From Leptolyngbyaceae cyanobacterium (GTDB lineage: Bacteria > Cyanobacteriota > Cyanobacteriia > Phormidesmidales > Phormidesmidaceae), in contig JBHJHA010000035.1 in NCBI GenBank assembly GCA_050331235.1, positions 79,311 through 143,310 on the forward strand: a DNA stretch of 64,000 nt, read 5' to 3'. Below are positions 51,601-57,600 of this stretch, in pieces; the first letter of the stretch is position 1; every line of letters starts with the position of its first letter. A program made the position numbers.

Positions 51601-54600
51601 ATAGTTTTGTGCCGTGAACATCAGCAGATGAAAGCCCTACTACAACGACTCGCCGACACTCAAGGGTTTGGTTCGAGGCTGATTTTTCACGGTACCAGGC
51701 AAGTCTTAAATGCATAGTTCAATCAATCATCAAATTTGAAACACATATTTTTCATAATCAACGTTAATGCAAAGTAACAAAATTCGATTGTTCTGATTTC
51801 TGGATTTGGGATTACAGTTAGTGTCAATAGGATTAGATACATTGCTGGGCTGATTCTAAGTTCTGTATGTCGAACTGTTGTAGATTGCGAGACATCAACC
51901 ATGGCCGAAAAACAAGAGGTTGAGATGCTAACCGGTCAAGCACTGGTGCAAAAAGTTAAAGAGCTGGAAGACCACACAAAAGAAGAAAAAGCCAAGGCGT
52001 GTGGATACTATACGATCACTAAAAATGGCACCAAGCGCGTCAACATGATGAAATTCATGAACGCCTTGATTGCGGCTGAAGGCATCGAGCTCGACAGCGA
52101 ACAAAGCACCAATGGTCGCGGTGGTCGAAGCGCCAGTTATCGCATTACAGTTCAGTCCAACGGTAATTTATTAATCGGCTCAACCTACACCAAGCAAATG
52201 GGATTGCAGCCAGGCGATGAGTTTGAGATCTCCTTGGGCCGTAAACATATTCATCTCAAACAGCTAACGGACGGTGAAGATGATGAGGAATAAATCTCTG
52301 CAGCAATCTTTGGATGAGATTAGTTTCTTAAGGCGCTGCCAGAAAACTTGTTCCTGTCAACGTATCTTCATCGTGCGATTAGCCCACTTTGGCTGGGTGA
52401 TTGTTGGTTGGCTGCACAGTCGCGATCGCCGCAAGATTTTACTTGAACAGTAGCACAGCTGAGGAATCCAGCCATTTTGTACATTGCACATTCACTCGCG
52501 AGTGAGTGCCCCTAATTGATGGAGAGCGATTCTATTTGGCATTTGGCCCACCTTGCCAACTATTAGGCACTGCGAATTCTATTTGCTTTGGGGTGTTTGT
52601 ACTAATTAATTGATATGACCATACCGTTCATACTAGAAGTCGCGATCGGCTTAGTGTTTATCTATCTCACGCTGAGTCTGCTCGCGAGCGAAGTTCAAGA
52701 AATTATCGGCACTCTTTTACAGTGGCGTGCAGAGCATTTAAAGCGATCCATCGAGGTGCTGATTGCCGCCAATGATAAAGACAGCAAAGAAGCCGCGGAA
52801 ACCTTAGCTAACCGCCTCTACGACACCCCGCTCATCCGCAGCTTAAATCAGGAAGCCACGGGTCCCATTGCCCACTTCTTTCGGTTGATCAATCAAGTCA
52901 TCGGTCAGGTTTACCGGACGATTACAAGGGCTCGCAACGTCTTTGGTAACAAAACCAGTGGCCCCTCCTATATTCCTGCCAAAACGTTTGCTCAAGCTCT
53001 ATTAGAAAGCGTTCAAGTTGAAGATTTGCGGGCAGTTTTATTGGAGAGTCGCTTAGGCCGGTTTATTCAAGAGAAACTAACGCTGCCGCTCAACCATATG
53101 GTCAATGATCTGAGGGCCAGCACCGCGAATGAGTTTCTGCTTAACACAGAGTTCCGTAATCTAGAAAGGTCGATTACCCAACTCATCGAGGACTTTCGGG
53201 AACAGCGGAGTACGCTATCGGAAACCCTCGATCGCTTAGTTGTTCGCTTAGACGAATTTGCCGCTGCCGCCCAGGCTGCGCTACCCGATAACCATCATCT
53301 GACTGAAACTTTTATGCGGCGGTTGGACTATCTCCGCCAAACCCTTGCCAGCACGACTTTAGATAAGTCTGCCATGATGAAAGCTATCCAACCGAGCCTG
53401 GCAGAGTTAGTTTCCGTTGTGGACTCTGATAGCTCAGTCTATCGAGAACTCAAGGAATTAGTGAGGCGCGATGGGGGCAAAGCTGAAAAAATTCTCACGA
53501 ATATAGAGAGCAATACTCTACCCGCCAGTCTCCAAGCAACATTAATCTCGCTAGCTGAAAAAGCTGGCAGTTCGTTGGCAGCTAAAGCCAGCGATACCGT
53601 TTTAGGAACGATGCAGAATCTAACCGAAGACTCTGTCAGCAACCTCAAAATTTACCTGTCTGATTTAGAGAGTGATGTCAAAGCTTTGGGCCTAGAGGTT
53701 GAGGCTTGGTTTAATCGCGGGATGGCTCGGGCCCAGGGCGTTTATAAGCGGAATGCTAAGGCTGTTGGATTGATGATTGGTATTGCGATCGCCATTTCCC
53801 TCAATGCCGACTCGCTGCATATCTTGGACAGCCTATCCCGCGATCCAGCGGTCCGCAATGCAATTACCCAAGCTGCAGAGCAAGTCGCTACAGACAATCC
53901 GGAAGTGATTGGCCAACTCGAAGAGGAGGTTGATCAAGTCCTGAGCGATCTACCCATTCCAATCGGATACAGTGAGGCCATTACCAGTAAACAGCAAGCT
54001 GCCCAAGATTCTTGGTTTATTCCCCTCATTCCGCGTCGGTTAGTTGGTTGGTTAATTACCGGCTTTGCCATCTCCATGGGCTCCAGTTTTTGGTTCAACT
54101 TGCTCAAGCGCGTGGTCAATGTCAAAAACTCTGGCAAAGAAGAGGGTACGAAGGATTAGCCACCCAGACTTCGGCCACTATCCCAGCAGCTTTCTCGCTT
54201 CATGATTAGGTCACCGCTTCATCAGTCTATAACTTCAAATAGGACGGCCTCTACGGTTCCTAAATTCGGCTGCCTTTCCTGGCTCAACTACCCAAAAATG
54301 CTATGCGGTTCTGCCTGCTAATCATCATGTTTACTACTGTATAGCGATAACCAGGATTGGCACTTTTGAAGGCATTAAAGAAAGTGTATTTTCAATCCAG
54401 TGTGAACACAAAAATTGAGGGAATTGTAATAATAGAGACAGAACAGCTGAACGTTCATCCTGTTGCTCTTTGCTCGACCTCAATCAACCCTAGCAGTAGT
54501 AATCAGGACGGAAGTAGGGTTAGGCCCCGAAGGAACGCGCCCCCAATACATCTAACTCATAACTGGAGGCGAATCATGTTAGACACTTCATTGATTCAAG

Positions 54601-57600
54601 GATTGGAAGTGATCGCTATCGTCAGTGTGATGACGACCGTTTTATCTCCCATTTTGTGCTGGGTGTTGACGCATCCTTTGCTCGAGAGTAAAGCGGGCTA
54701 AGCCGGAAAACGTCACAGCCCGATGGTTCGCGCGATCCATCGGGCTGTATTTTTGATTGCACCCCATCCTGGGCGGTGCAACCTAATTATGTGGTTTTTA
54801 CGCAGGTTGTCGATGGCGACTCGGCGATCGAGAATTTGTGCTCAAGTAGCGCTTGCTGGCCTCACTTTATATGCCTTGTGCATAGGATAACCGTCCTGGG
54901 CATAGATGCGATCCACGCAGTTTTGCGCAATTTCTAAATCTTGAAAGACACTCAGTACTTCTTCTCGCCCATTGGCGTAGAGCACACATAACTCCCAAAA
55001 CATGACGAACTCCTGAACTGACTGAATCAGCCTTCGAGAAGCTTTAATTAAGCTTCGTACTCCAGCCTGTTTTAAGCGTATTGCTTGATTCCAGCTTCGT
55101 AATCCGCAAGATTATCGAATCGATAATGGAATGCTGGCTATTTGGTGAAACAACTGCGGCGGACATTGACGGCTATTGACAACCGCAGCGCTCGATCGCC
55201 TTGCTGGCCCGATCGCGGCTCCATTTTCGGTAAGGGGAGCAGTGATAGCAACCTAGGCGGTGAGGATGTAGCGGTGGCAAAATTTGACTGTGTGATTGTG
55301 GGGGCTGGACCCGCAGGGAGTAGTGCGGCCTATCACCTATCCCGGCGAGGGATTACCGTGCTCCTGCTAGATCAAGCCACCTTTCCCCGTAACAAGCCCT
55401 GCACTGGCGCCGTATCACCCCGAATCGCTGAATGGTTTGATTTTGACTTTGCGCCTGCTCTAGAGACAACCGAACGACGCATTCGCTACACCTGGAAGCT
55501 CGGCGATGAAGTTGCAGCAGAATTGAAGACCCAGGAGCCGATTTGGTTAGTCAAACGAGACAAGTTTGACCAGTTTTTGGTAGAGCAGGCGATCGCCCAG
55601 GGCACCACCTTTCAAGATGGGACTGCCGTTACAGGTCTCACTTTTACCGCAGGACAGTGGCAAATTCAGACCCCAGCCGAAACCTTTCACAGTGACTACT
55701 TAGTGGCGGCAGATGGCGGTCAGGGGCCTATCGCTGGCTGGCTGGGCTTGAAACAGCCGTCGCCGCGGGCGGCGGCGATGTATACCCTGTCTGCTCCCTT
55801 GCCGACGGACTACAGCGCCCTTAATTTTGAATTTGGCTTGCTCAAAAACGGGTGTTTATGGTGCTTTCCTCAAACCCAGGGCACTGTGATGGGAGCCCTG
55901 AGTCTTGTGGGCAATGAGCCCGCTGATTTTGAAACGACCTTTGCGGCCTATACGGCTGGCCTCATGGGGCCAGACTTCCCGGGTGAATGCCATTCATGCC
56001 CTGTGCAGCTTTGGGATGGTCACTATCCGCGTCATACCCAGCAAGCGGTGGTGGTAGGCGAGGCCGCGGCGATTGTTGATCCGTTGTCGGCGGAAGGCAT
56101 CCGCCATGGTCTGTACAGCGGCATGAAAGGGGCTGAGGCGATCGCCTCAGCCCTAGCGGGTAATGCCGCTGCCTTGGCTGGCTACACCGACGCCATGACC
56201 GCCTGGGGCAATAATATGCAGTGGGCCCAGCGTATTGCTGGCGTATTCTTTCGGGTGCCGGGTATTGGCTACCGAGTCGGGATCAAACGACCCACCATGA
56301 CCAAACGTATGGGCCAACTGCTAACCGGCGAAATTCAATACAGCGACATCGCCAACCGCGTCATCAAGCGGCTAACAACCGGTTTTCTGCCGGGGCGTTC
56401 GTAAGTTCTAGGCTGTCCACTACTGAGCTAGCTGCGTTAAGGCCGCGCCAGTGACGCGACAAAGTTGCCATTCCGGTTTGATTTCCGCTCCCATCCGCTC
56501 ATAGAAGGCGATCGCGGGGCGGTTCCAGTCCAGCACGTTCCAATCTAGGCGGCCGCAGTCCCGCGCTACAGCTAGCTGGGCCAAATGCCGCAGCAGGGCT
56601 TTACCAATGCCCTGGCCGCGATGCTCAGGCAACACAAATAAATCTTCTAAGTAAATGCCCGGCTGCATCAAGAATGTTGAGTAGTTGTGAAAAAACAAGG
56701 CAAAGCCGACGGCTTGTTCATCCACGCGGGCAATCAGCGCCTCGGCATAGGGGCGATCGCCAAACAGATGTTGTTCTAGATCGCTGAGCTGACCAGTCAC
56801 TTCATGGGCGAGCTTTTCGTACTCAGCTAACGCGTTGATCAAAGCGTAAATCGCGGGAACATCACCGGGCTGGGCCGAGGTGATTGTTATTGAGTGGGGA
56901 TTCATCACATCAGACATGGTAAAAACAGCAGTATCTCTGGATGGAGCAAATGGGTAGATGGAGCAAATAGGTGATCGCCATGACTGAACTAGCCGCCCCC
57001 AAGATAGGTGCGGTTACCCACCGGCGGCGGGTAATTTCAGCCATTGAGAATTTTGCCAAACTTTCGTATCATCGAGCTTCTGAATTAATCTGACAGACGC
57101 TAATTGACCGTGAGCAGAAAGCAAAGGTCTACCATATATATTGATGGAGTGTGCAAGCTGGTCAGCGGCTGCCCCTGACGACGGGGCCTGTGTAATGATG
57201 GTTGGCAGTACCGTGAGCAATTTTGCTGACGCTAAAAGGCTAGAGTCAGTTGGCTATCTGTTGCATGTCATACAGCATCCTCGGGCTGAACACCGCAGGC
57301 TGAGGTAAGTCATCAAGTCATCACCGTTAGGCAAAGGGACGAACGAGGAGACACGAGTCGAATGGGTAAAGTTGTTGGTATTGACCTTGGGACAACCAAC
57401 TCAGTGGTCTCTGTTATGGAGGGTGGCAAGCCCATCGTCATCGCCAATGCTGAAGGCATGCGCACCACTCCTTCCGTGGTTGCCTTTAGCAAGGATGGCG
57501 AACGCCTGGTGGGTCAGATGGCCCGTCGACAAGCCGTGTTGAATCCTCAAAATACCTTTTACGGTGTCAAACGGTTCATGGGGCGCAAGTATGGGGAACT

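What a model noticed while it worked through the whole genome (the two positions that open the first line are those of the whole stretch)
54450..54701. Glutamine riboswitches that control a new family of ~40-aa membrane peptides (SPILCWVLP motif) instead of IF17/DUF4278
Two of the five type-1 glutamine riboswitches of this genome do not precede a gifB/IF17-like (DUF4278) gene but a tiny ORF for a single-pass hydrophobic peptide: C35:133760-133851 -> g01859 (41 aa, C35:133886-134011,+) and C20:3003-3072 -> g01066 (55 aa, C20:3107-3274,+). Both start 34 nt behind the aptamer, the same spacing as at the three DUF4278 genes (37-47 nt), and share a C-proximal motif P-I-(L/F)-C-W-V. The riboswitch+peptide unit is conserved in related genera, so glutamine sensing in these cyanobacteria has a second, membrane-located output besides glutamine-synthetase inactivating factors; a glutamine-induced regulator of a nitrogen transporter is the obvious guess.
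Evidence so far: rna.tsv: RF01739 50.4 and 51.9 bits; ORFs and peptides read in call 78 (no Pfam, NCBIfam or Swiss-Prot row). DNA search with aptamer+ORF in 173 Phormidesmidales genomes: 111 match the aptamer, about 20 match through the ORF at 69-75% identity. In 22 loci an ORF of 38-51 aa starts ~125 nt after the aptamer start with consensus M(L)sTSLxQGLEIvaiVSvMaiVvSP(I/V)LCW(V/I)LPDR; a g01066-like variant follows the aptamer in 2 more loci (L109, L115, call 81). Nucleotide diversity by codon position in 12 in-register orthologues: 9.35 / 3.92 / 15.39 (pos 1/2/3), the pattern of a translated ORF. Six-frame search with the 41-aa peptide: 43 of 401 sampled Cyanobacteriia genomes, 25 of 167 genera, several f [...]
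(Added by a program. Inside this text positions count along the whole contig: contig position 79,311 is position 1 of the stretch shown here. "Call 12" and the like, gene names such as g00115 and contig names such as C1 are that model's own, and its searches are not shown. The text may have been shortened before it was handed on; [...] marks where a part breaks off. The agent that wrote the report below was given it as the finding of a first reader that could run no searches.)

Follow-up and report, generated by a model that had tools for sequence, protein, structure and literature searches.

The report
Glutamine-switched cyanobacterial membrane microprotein
A glutamine-riboswitch sequence, of the kind cyanobacteria use to throttle nitrogen assimilation, sits here in front of a conserved 41-codon gene for a predicted one-helix membrane protein of an uncatalogued family, which is likely made when nitrogen is plentiful and would then damp a nitrogen importer such as the ammonium channel (target untested).

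Summary
Observation confirmed and extended. RF01739 lies at 54450-54541 (51.9 bits), 34 nt before a 41-codon ORF; two of the genome's five aptamers precede such ORFs and three precede DUF4278 genes.

The ORF is coding: dN/dS is 0.15 and 0 of 54 orthologue cores contain a stop. It encodes one predicted N-out/C-in helix with a near-invariant Pro and Trp; the Cys residues are variable. The family has 163 clusters at 50% identity, occurs in 62 of 401 sampled Cyanobacteriia genomes (E<=1e-4), and has no convincing Pfam, NCBIfam or PDB match.

An NtcA box overlaps the inferred -10 element (perfect in 29 of 57 leaders; 1% in shuffles). An anti-Shine-Dalgarno pairing is kept with the aptamer (53 of 58) and lost without it (2 of 58). 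About half of the sampled copies lack the riboswitch.

The target is unknown. NrtP and NrtABCD are each missing from many carriers, whereas Amt and Urt are not excluded. No expression data were available. No paper describing it was found; the scan noted this family before in other genomes and on another contig here.

The parts
54426..54439 (+). NtcA-type box GTA-N8-(T/G)AC, one mismatch in this copy. It overlaps an AATAAT -10-like hexamer (54428-54433), which is the repressor position (inferred; start site not mapped).
   Evidence: Sequence. A perfect 6/6 box lies within 45 nt upstream of the aptamer in 29 of 57 peptide leaders and >=5/6 in 42 of 57; shuffles give 1% and 17%; DUF4278 leaders 59 of 77 perfect.
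54450..54541 (+). Type-1 glutamine riboswitch aptamer (RF01739) with a long P2 insert
   Evidence: 51.9 bits. Conserved core blocks; the outer three pairs of P2 and P3 are paired in 52-56 of 56 parsed aptamers, with C-G/U-A and G-C/A-U exchanges.
54538..54545 (+). Anti-Shine-Dalgarno tail of the aptamer (predicted OFF-state pairing)
   Evidence: Folding buries the SD (unpaired probability about 0.04); blocking three tail bases raises it to 0.4-0.9. Median duplex -11.2 kcal/mol against -6.6 for shuffled tails.
54564..54571 (+). Extended Shine-Dalgarno (GGAGGCG)
   Evidence: GAGGCG is present in 53 of 58 loci with an intact aptamer and 2 of 58 without one.
54576..54701 (+). 41-aa ORF: one predicted transmembrane helix, N-out/C-in, with the small-x3-small-P-x-L-x-W motif at its predicted cytoplasmic end
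   Evidence: Translation; dN/dS 0.15; C-side K/R excess in 113 of 141 representatives and N-side excess in 0; AlphaFold2 helix 4-38, pLDDT 85; 163 clusters.
54715..54755 (+). Terminator-like hairpin with a short U-rich tail, closing a predicted stand-alone transcript of about 310 nt
   Evidence: -25.4 kcal/mol. The consensus scanner did not list it. Hairpins <= -12 kcal/mol follow 96 of 118 loci, against 190 of 354 shuffles.

Best explanation
This is a stand-alone gene for a 41-residue predicted single-pass membrane protein behind a gifB-type double gate, likely repressed by NtcA when nitrogen is scarce and likely translated only when glutamine frees the ribosome-binding site, and the protein would then pack against a nitrogen importer (most likely the ammonium channel Amt1, otherwise the urea ABC permease) to damp uptake.

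Shown by sequence: an aptamer with an intact core, an NtcA box at the same offset as in DUF4278 leaders, SD/anti-SD complementarity that is lost together with the aptamer, purifying selection on the ORF, and one hydrophobic helix with a positive-inside bias.

Inferred from gifB (probability about 0.85): repression by NtcA and an ON switch on glutamine binding.

Inferred from anatomy (about 0.75): the helix acts by binding a partner membrane protein through its small-residue face and the Pro/Trp end, not as an enzyme, metal site or redox site.

A guess (about 0.35): the partner is Amt1 or Urt and the effect is inhibitory or destabilising. Paralogues without the riboswitch would use the same helix under NtcA alone or under other signals.
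For: Aptamer. Coding. NtcA box 6/6 in 29 of 57 leaders against 1% in shuffles, with offsets mostly -22 to -33 as in DUF4278 leaders; the box is kept in several aptamer-less orthologues (L031, L033, L035). GAGGCG in 53 of 58 against 2 of 58; SD folding. The same mechanism is proposed for gifB in PMC6212724 (passages and Fig. S3 legend). An NtcA site over the core promoter represses gif genes (PMC6316151 passages). Cys is replaced by Ser, Ala, Thr or Gly, which fits helix packing. Amt is present in 31 of 31 relatives and canonical UrtA in 32 of 34 carriers. Excess ammonium uptake damages PSII and must be limited (PMC8042125 passage). Small one-helix proteins that act on transporters or kinases are known in E. 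coli (MgtS, MgrB; PMC11429745 passages).
Against: There is no expression, proteomic or interaction data. No N-transport gene was among the 109 neighbour proteins scanned. Amt is universal, so co-occurrence cannot support it specifically, and large cyanobacterial families with Amt lack the peptide (f2, f5, f18: 0 of 41 each). PII already controls Amt1, NrtC/D and UrtE in Synechocystis (PMC8042125 and PMC7760959 passages), so a second brake is not required. One aptamer-less paralogue clade, including this genome's C51 copy, mostly lacks the NtcA box as well, which argues for a target not confined to nitrogen uptake. The NtcA box in this copy has a mismatch and is degenerate in several same-genus copies. 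Enforcing P1 alone did not free the SD in the 2D model; three tail bases had to be blocked by hand.
Confidence: 0.38

Rival explanations
1. Same nitrogen-excess control, but the helix tunes a non-importer membrane partner: a sensor kinase (MgrB-like), the FtsH protease or PSII repair, an electron-transport complex, or a carbon-uptake system.
For: Paralogues occur under different promoters (NtcA+aptamer, NtcA only, neither). A CRP-like site scores >=8/10 in 6 of 17 aptamer-less leaders against about 10% in shuffles, three of the six being close kin. N-out/C-in single helices are typical of small thylakoid subunits (recalled).
Against: No homology to PsaI (HHalign probability 24%, 14 columns, different register) or to any PDB chain. 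No conserved gene neighbour points to such a partner.
Confidence: 0.37
2. The peptide oligomerises with itself into a small pore or leak (an ammonium or amino-acid overflow valve, or a toxin-like depolariser) made under nitrogen excess.
For: Tight ON/OFF control, a stand-alone transcript and a small-residue stripe along one helix face.
Against: No conserved polar pore-lining face and no antitoxin-like element were seen. The gene is kept as a syntenic chromosomal gene (convergent sulfite-reductase-type gene in 17 of 123 loci), with no match in the phage or plasmid collections.
Confidence: 0.08
3. It regulates the nitrate importer (NrtP or NrtABCD), explaining ammonium inhibition of nitrate uptake.
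For: Fits the regulatory logic; this genome has an NrtP-type gene.
Against: The NrtP-type gene was not found in 18 of 38 peptide-positive genomes outside the own family, nor in aptamer-bearing G104, G253, G296, G303 or G373. A bona fide NrtB/CmpB-level match (E<=1e-99) was found in only 12 of 34 aptamer+peptide genomes. One helix would have to serve two unrelated folds.
Confidence: 0.07
4. It is a membrane-anchored GS-inactivating factor or a tether for GS or PII.
For: It has the same leader as gifB.
Against: No DUF4278 or IF7 similarity. The soluble tail is short (often 2-10 residues after the motif) and unconserved.
Confidence: 0.06
5. The ORF is not translated; the unit is a non-coding RNA or an orphan aptamer.
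For: No expression data; absent from Pfam and NCBIfam.
Against: dN/dS 0.15, 0 of 54 stops in frame, conserved SD and AUG spacing, and 163 protein clusters.
Confidence: 0.03

Closest known systems
gifB (IF17, DUF4278/PF14105) leader of Synechocystis sp. PCC 6803: NtcA-repressed promoter plus type-1 glutamine riboswitch RF01739 (PMC6212724, PMC6316151; passages read)
   Same: Aptamer core, anti-SD/SD pairing, 34 nt aptamer-to-AUG spacing (37-47 at this genome's DUF4278 genes), NtcA box at the same offset with a near-identical consensus context.
   Different: The product is a hydrophobic single-helix peptide with no DUF4278 or IF7 similarity. The riboswitch is absent in about half of the sampled family members.
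Unassigned RF01739 targets in Klaehn et al. 2018, Table S2 (cyanobacterial genomes: DUF4278 118, 'hypothetical - no CDD match' 77, 'no proximal gene' 24)
   Same: This family belongs to that unassigned class: 9 of 120 sampled aptamers.
   Different: The paper does not describe these ORFs in the passages and tables read. More of the class appears to be IF7-like (13 of 120).
Small single-pass regulators MgtS and MgrB of E. coli (PMC11429745 passages)
   Same: Stress-induced proteins of under 50 aa with one helix that act on a transporter or kinase: the working model here.
   Different: No sequence relation shown. The Atlas gave only sub-threshold scores (YldA 0.80, MgtS-like 0.77). The control here is metabolite-sensing RNA plus NtcA.
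PsaI (PF00796)
   Same: Similar length and a local P-hydrophobic-W look-alike in some PsaI variants (lead recalled, tested).
   Different: HHalign probability 24%. The look-alike lies in the N-half of the PsaI helix and the C-half of this one, and the genome has its own psaI elsewhere.

Membership tests
Type-1 glutamine riboswitch (RF01739) | Covariance-model score above the gathering threshold over the full model | tested here: met
   51.9 bits against 35, model positions 1-53
Type-1 glutamine riboswitch (RF01739) | Conserved core blocks and P1-P2-P3 junction with covarying stems | tested here: met
   56 aptamers parsed among 121 loci; core blocks near-invariant; compensatory P2/P3 pairs
Type-1 glutamine riboswitch (RF01739) | Expression platform: 3' tail pairs with the SD | tested here: met
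   Predicted by folding and duplex energy; SD extension co-lost with the aptamer
Type-1 glutamine riboswitch (RF01739) | Binds L-glutamine and switches translation on | not testable with these tools
   Needs in-line probing and a reporter
NtcA-repressed gif-type promoter | GTA-N8-TAC box overlapping the core promoter | tested here: inconclusive
   Family-wide enrichment is clear (29 of 57 perfect against 1%), but this copy has one mismatch and the start site is unmapped
IF17 / DUF4278 (PF14105) | DUF4278 domain | tested here: not met
   No hit for the peptide or for 62 aligned members at E<=0.1; the three other aptamer targets hit
IF7 (NF052599) | IF7 profile match; soluble basic peptide | tested here: not met
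   0 of 62 members match
PsaI (PF00796) | Profile match in register | tested here: not met
MgtS/MgrB-like small membrane regulators (works-like class) | Under 50 aa, one transmembrane helix, signal-induced stand-alone gene | tested here: met
   Predicted from sequence and model; induction inferred from the leader
MgtS/MgrB-like small membrane regulators (works-like class) | Binds and regulates a larger membrane protein | not testable with these tools
   Needs a pull-down or two-hybrid test

The most novel reading that the evidence does not exclude
Filamentous and some unicellular cyanobacteria have an unrecognised, PII-independent membrane arm of nitrogen control: a family of one-helix 'transporter-inactivating factors', the membrane counterpart of IF7/IF17, wired to the same NtcA + glutamine-riboswitch gate and shutting ammonium or urea import after a nitrogen upshift, with paralogues that bring other signals to the same target.
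Probability: 0.3. Interest if true: 0.85.

Novelty: new variant of a known kind. Interest (0 to 1): 0.62.

Why it matters
Cyanobacterial glutamine riboswitches are described as controllers of GS-inactivating factors, and the founding paper left 101 cyanobacterial aptamers without an identifiable gene (77 hypothetical, 24 with no proximal gene). This defines one output in that class: an uncatalogued membrane microprotein family found in at least 10 coded families, carrying the complete gifB-type gate. It gives a concrete gene, promoter, switch and predicted topology for a direct test of whether nitrogen excess is relayed to the membrane independently of PII. Named members exist in cultured strains (Lepto7376_2517, Cyast_0299). 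The control parts are known; the protein family and its target are the new part.

Tried and rejected
Complex prediction of the genome's Amt (415-residue core, 28-row alignment) with the peptide: no verdict (score 0.00, mark 0.32); not used as evidence either way. RNA runs: no RNA holder listed; no evidence either way.

PsaI homology, a recalled lead, was rejected. PDB sequence search and Foldseek on the single helix: no match. ESM Atlas: only scores <=0.80. Pfam and NCBIfam on 62 members: scattered one- or two-member hits (best MerF 6e-4 in one member), treated as hydrophobic noise.

Fusions: none among 7,995 longer candidates (weak evidence). P0033 is a low-complexity repeat and P0161 an unrelated ABC transporter; P0099 (488 aa, 8 stretches) was not inspected. 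Phage and plasmid collections, searched with one member only: no match.

Gene neighbourhood gave no functional partner. The commonest neighbour, a convergent nitrite/sulfite-reductase-family gene (17 of 123 loci, all within the own family), is read as synteny. NrtP and NrtABCD were rejected as obligatory targets. A metal or redox role for Cys was rejected because neither Cys is invariant.

The peptide tree (34 columns, 23 of 116 branches well supported) cannot say whether the riboswitch is ancestral; it does show aptamer-less copies nested among intact ones in one supported clade. The constrained folds used a wrong anchor and were redone.
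Full report
OBSERVATION. Rfam finds the glutamine aptamer RF01739 at 54450-54541 (+), 51.9 bits. 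An AUG follows 34 nt later behind GGAGGCG and opens a 41-codon frame, 54576-54701. The upstream gene ends at 54159 and the next gene is convergent; a -25.4 kcal/mol hairpin with a short U-rich tail follows the stop. The unit therefore looks like a stand-alone transcript of about 310 nt (inferred). The genome has five aptamers: three precede DUF4278 genes, and two precede this peptide and a 55-aa paralogue on C20. A third paralogue on C51 has no aptamer.

THE ORF IS A GENE. A six-frame search hit 99 of 173 genomes of the order at E<=0.05, including a few noise hits in long ORFs near the threshold. All 70 loci I cut out from that list held a full ORF with a start codon. On 54 orthologous 28-codon cores (301 pairs at 65-97% identity), dN/dS is 0.15 in frame and 0.34-2.9 in the other five frames; stops occur in 0 of 54 in frame and 18-53 of 54 elsewhere. 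A 42-row profile hit 80 of 401 sampled Cyanobacteriia genomes at E<=0.01. Of these, 62, in 10 coded families, reach E<=1e-4; the other 18 are partly noise. Of 70 loci cut out, 69 had a start codon. Three well-sampled families had none (0 of 41 each). A 62-row profile found 163 clusters at 50% identity; 148 of the 150 listed are 33-115 aa. There is no convincing Pfam, NCBIfam, PDB-sequence or Foldseek match. Named members are 'hypothetical' (Lepto7376_2517, Cyast_0299, AA637_02340).

PROTEIN ANATOMY. In 141 of 147 representatives that could be anchored, the start Met lies 23 residues before the Pro in 85%. The N-terminus is acidic with almost no K/R (0.04 per sequence); the C-side carries more K/R in 113, equal in 28 and fewer in 0. 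Peak 19-residue hydropathy averages 2.39. This predicts N-out/C-in topology. AlphaFold2 gives one helix, residues 4-38, pLDDT 85. Small residues recur at -16, -8, -5 and -1 relative to the Pro, Leu/Phe at +2 and Trp at +4. The Cys positions are only 45% and 40% Cys. I infer a helix-packing surface ending at the cytoplasmic face, not a metal or redox site.

CONTROL. Among 121 distinct loci (chosen by me and enriched for the own family), 58 have an intact aptamer by pattern, 5 a partial one and 58 none. Rfam confirmed aptamers beside the peptide in 12 of 20, 8 of 20, 4 of 20, 2 of 20 and 15 of 20 scanned loci, covering the own family and five others. The aptamers keep the core and show compensatory changes. 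The aptamer tail pairs with an extended SD: median -11.2 kcal/mol against -6.6 for shuffled tails. The extension GAGGCG is present in 53 of 58 intact and 2 of 58 aptamer-less loci; kin are not independent, but losses recur within one supported clade. In the window's leader the SD is buried (unpaired probability about 0.04) and opens to 0.4-0.9 only when three tail bases are withheld, as the ligand-bound long-range pairing would do; enforcing P1 alone does not open it. This matches the ON mechanism proposed for gifB (PMC6212724). A perfect NtcA box lies within 45 nt upstream of the aptamer in 29 of 57 peptide leaders and 59 of 77 DUF4278 leaders, against about 1% in shuffles, with similar offsets and flanks. 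Here it is at 54426-54439 with one mismatch, overlapping a -10-like hexamer. A start near 54440 would centre it at -7.5, one of the repressing positions given for gif promoters (PMC6316151). Several orthologues lost the aptamer and kept the box; one paralogue clade mostly has neither.

HOW COMMON AN OUTPUT. An exact-pattern scan of 8 of 64 parts of the species collection gave 120 aptamer matches in 117 stretches. Of these, 77 precede DUF4278-like ORFs (by motif), 9 precede this family and 34 precede others; 13 of 14 tested others are IF7-like, below the curated cut-off. The family members came from records named Leptolyngbya, Nodosilinea, Halomicronema, Thainema, Trichocoleus and unclassified MAGs.

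TARGET. Neighbours are variable. None of 109 scanned proteins (one per cluster for most clusters, plus the longer singletons, out of 388 neighbour ORFs) is an amt, nrt, urt, glnA or glnB product. As necessary-condition tests: an NrtP-type gene was not found in 18 of the 38 peptide-positive genomes outside the own family; an NrtB/CmpB-level match was found in 12 of 34 aptamer+peptide genomes; canonical UrtA in 32 of 34; Amt in 31 of 31 relatives, and this genome has one copy. A single shared N-importer target could thus only be Amt or, less cleanly, Urt. This is exclusion, not support. Against it, PII already controls these transporters, and paralogues without nitrogen control exist. I commit to 'brake on Amt1/Urt' at 0.38, nearly tied with 'another membrane partner' at 0.37. 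The claim that this is a real membrane microprotein under NtcA and glutamine control stands at about 0.85.

LITERATURE. Nine full-text searches returned no paper describing this family; the library lacks most subscription journals. PMC6212724: passages, a term search of the supplement and supplement parts 2-3 of 3 were read; part 1 was not. It notes aptamers before genes without Pfam matches and counts 77 hypothetical and 24 gene-less cases without comment. PMC6316151, PMC8400943, PMC13205821 (PirN, DUF1830, unrelated), PMC7760959, PMC8042125 and PMC11429745: passages only. The aptamer crystal structure paper was seen only as cited in PMC6212724. Earlier scan notes describe the same family in other genomes and at C20; they are not independent evidence.

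VERDICT. A real and undescribed protein family behind a known, fully conserved regulatory gate: a new variant of a known kind, interest 0.62. The target remains the open question.

Noticed in passing
L149, L159, L163, L165, L180, L187, L215, L219, L220, L240, L246, L250, L259: Type-1 glutamine aptamers precede ~50-aa IF7-like ORFs without DUF4278 (13 of 14 tested match NF052599 below its cut-off), so glutamine riboswitches may also gate gifA-type genes.
   Followed up: partly
L176, L243, L258; L190, L225; L195, L208; L197: Further recurrent small-ORF types behind the aptamer with no NCBIfam match in those tested: additional uncharacterised outputs.
   Followed up: no
L152:519-725, L155:520-678: Other hydrophobic ORFs behind aptamers; L155 may be a divergent member of the C20-type subfamily, below the profile threshold.
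   Followed up: no
L162, L202, L252, L154: In marine proteobacterial single-cell or metagenome assemblies the aptamer precedes glnA (L162 tested) and a TorF-type porin (L154), as in the environmental rows of Klaehn Table S2.
   Followed up: partly
window 54842-55003 (-): Convergent 53-aa ORF with no Pfam or NCBIfam match, 77-86% identical in neighbouring loci of the same genus and g15: a second uncatalogued small gene.
   Followed up: partly
G000:C51:6390-6500; L050, L066, L075, L140, L141: Aptamer-less paralogue clade; CRP-like site >=8/10 in 6 of 17 leaders against about 10% in shuffles, a lead for cAMP or other control.
   Followed up: partly
   Followed up: no
G000:C50:43934-44306 (-): Two tandem riboswitch + 56-aa DUF4278-only units in a row.
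   Followed up: no
L143 (G108:C126): Two near-identical family copies about 3 kb apart, each before a TPR-CHAT gene.
   Followed up: no
G010, G011, G013, G015, G016 and others: Amt domains within 780-1010-codon open frames, probably Amt-sensor fusions; absent from the own genome.
   Followed up: no
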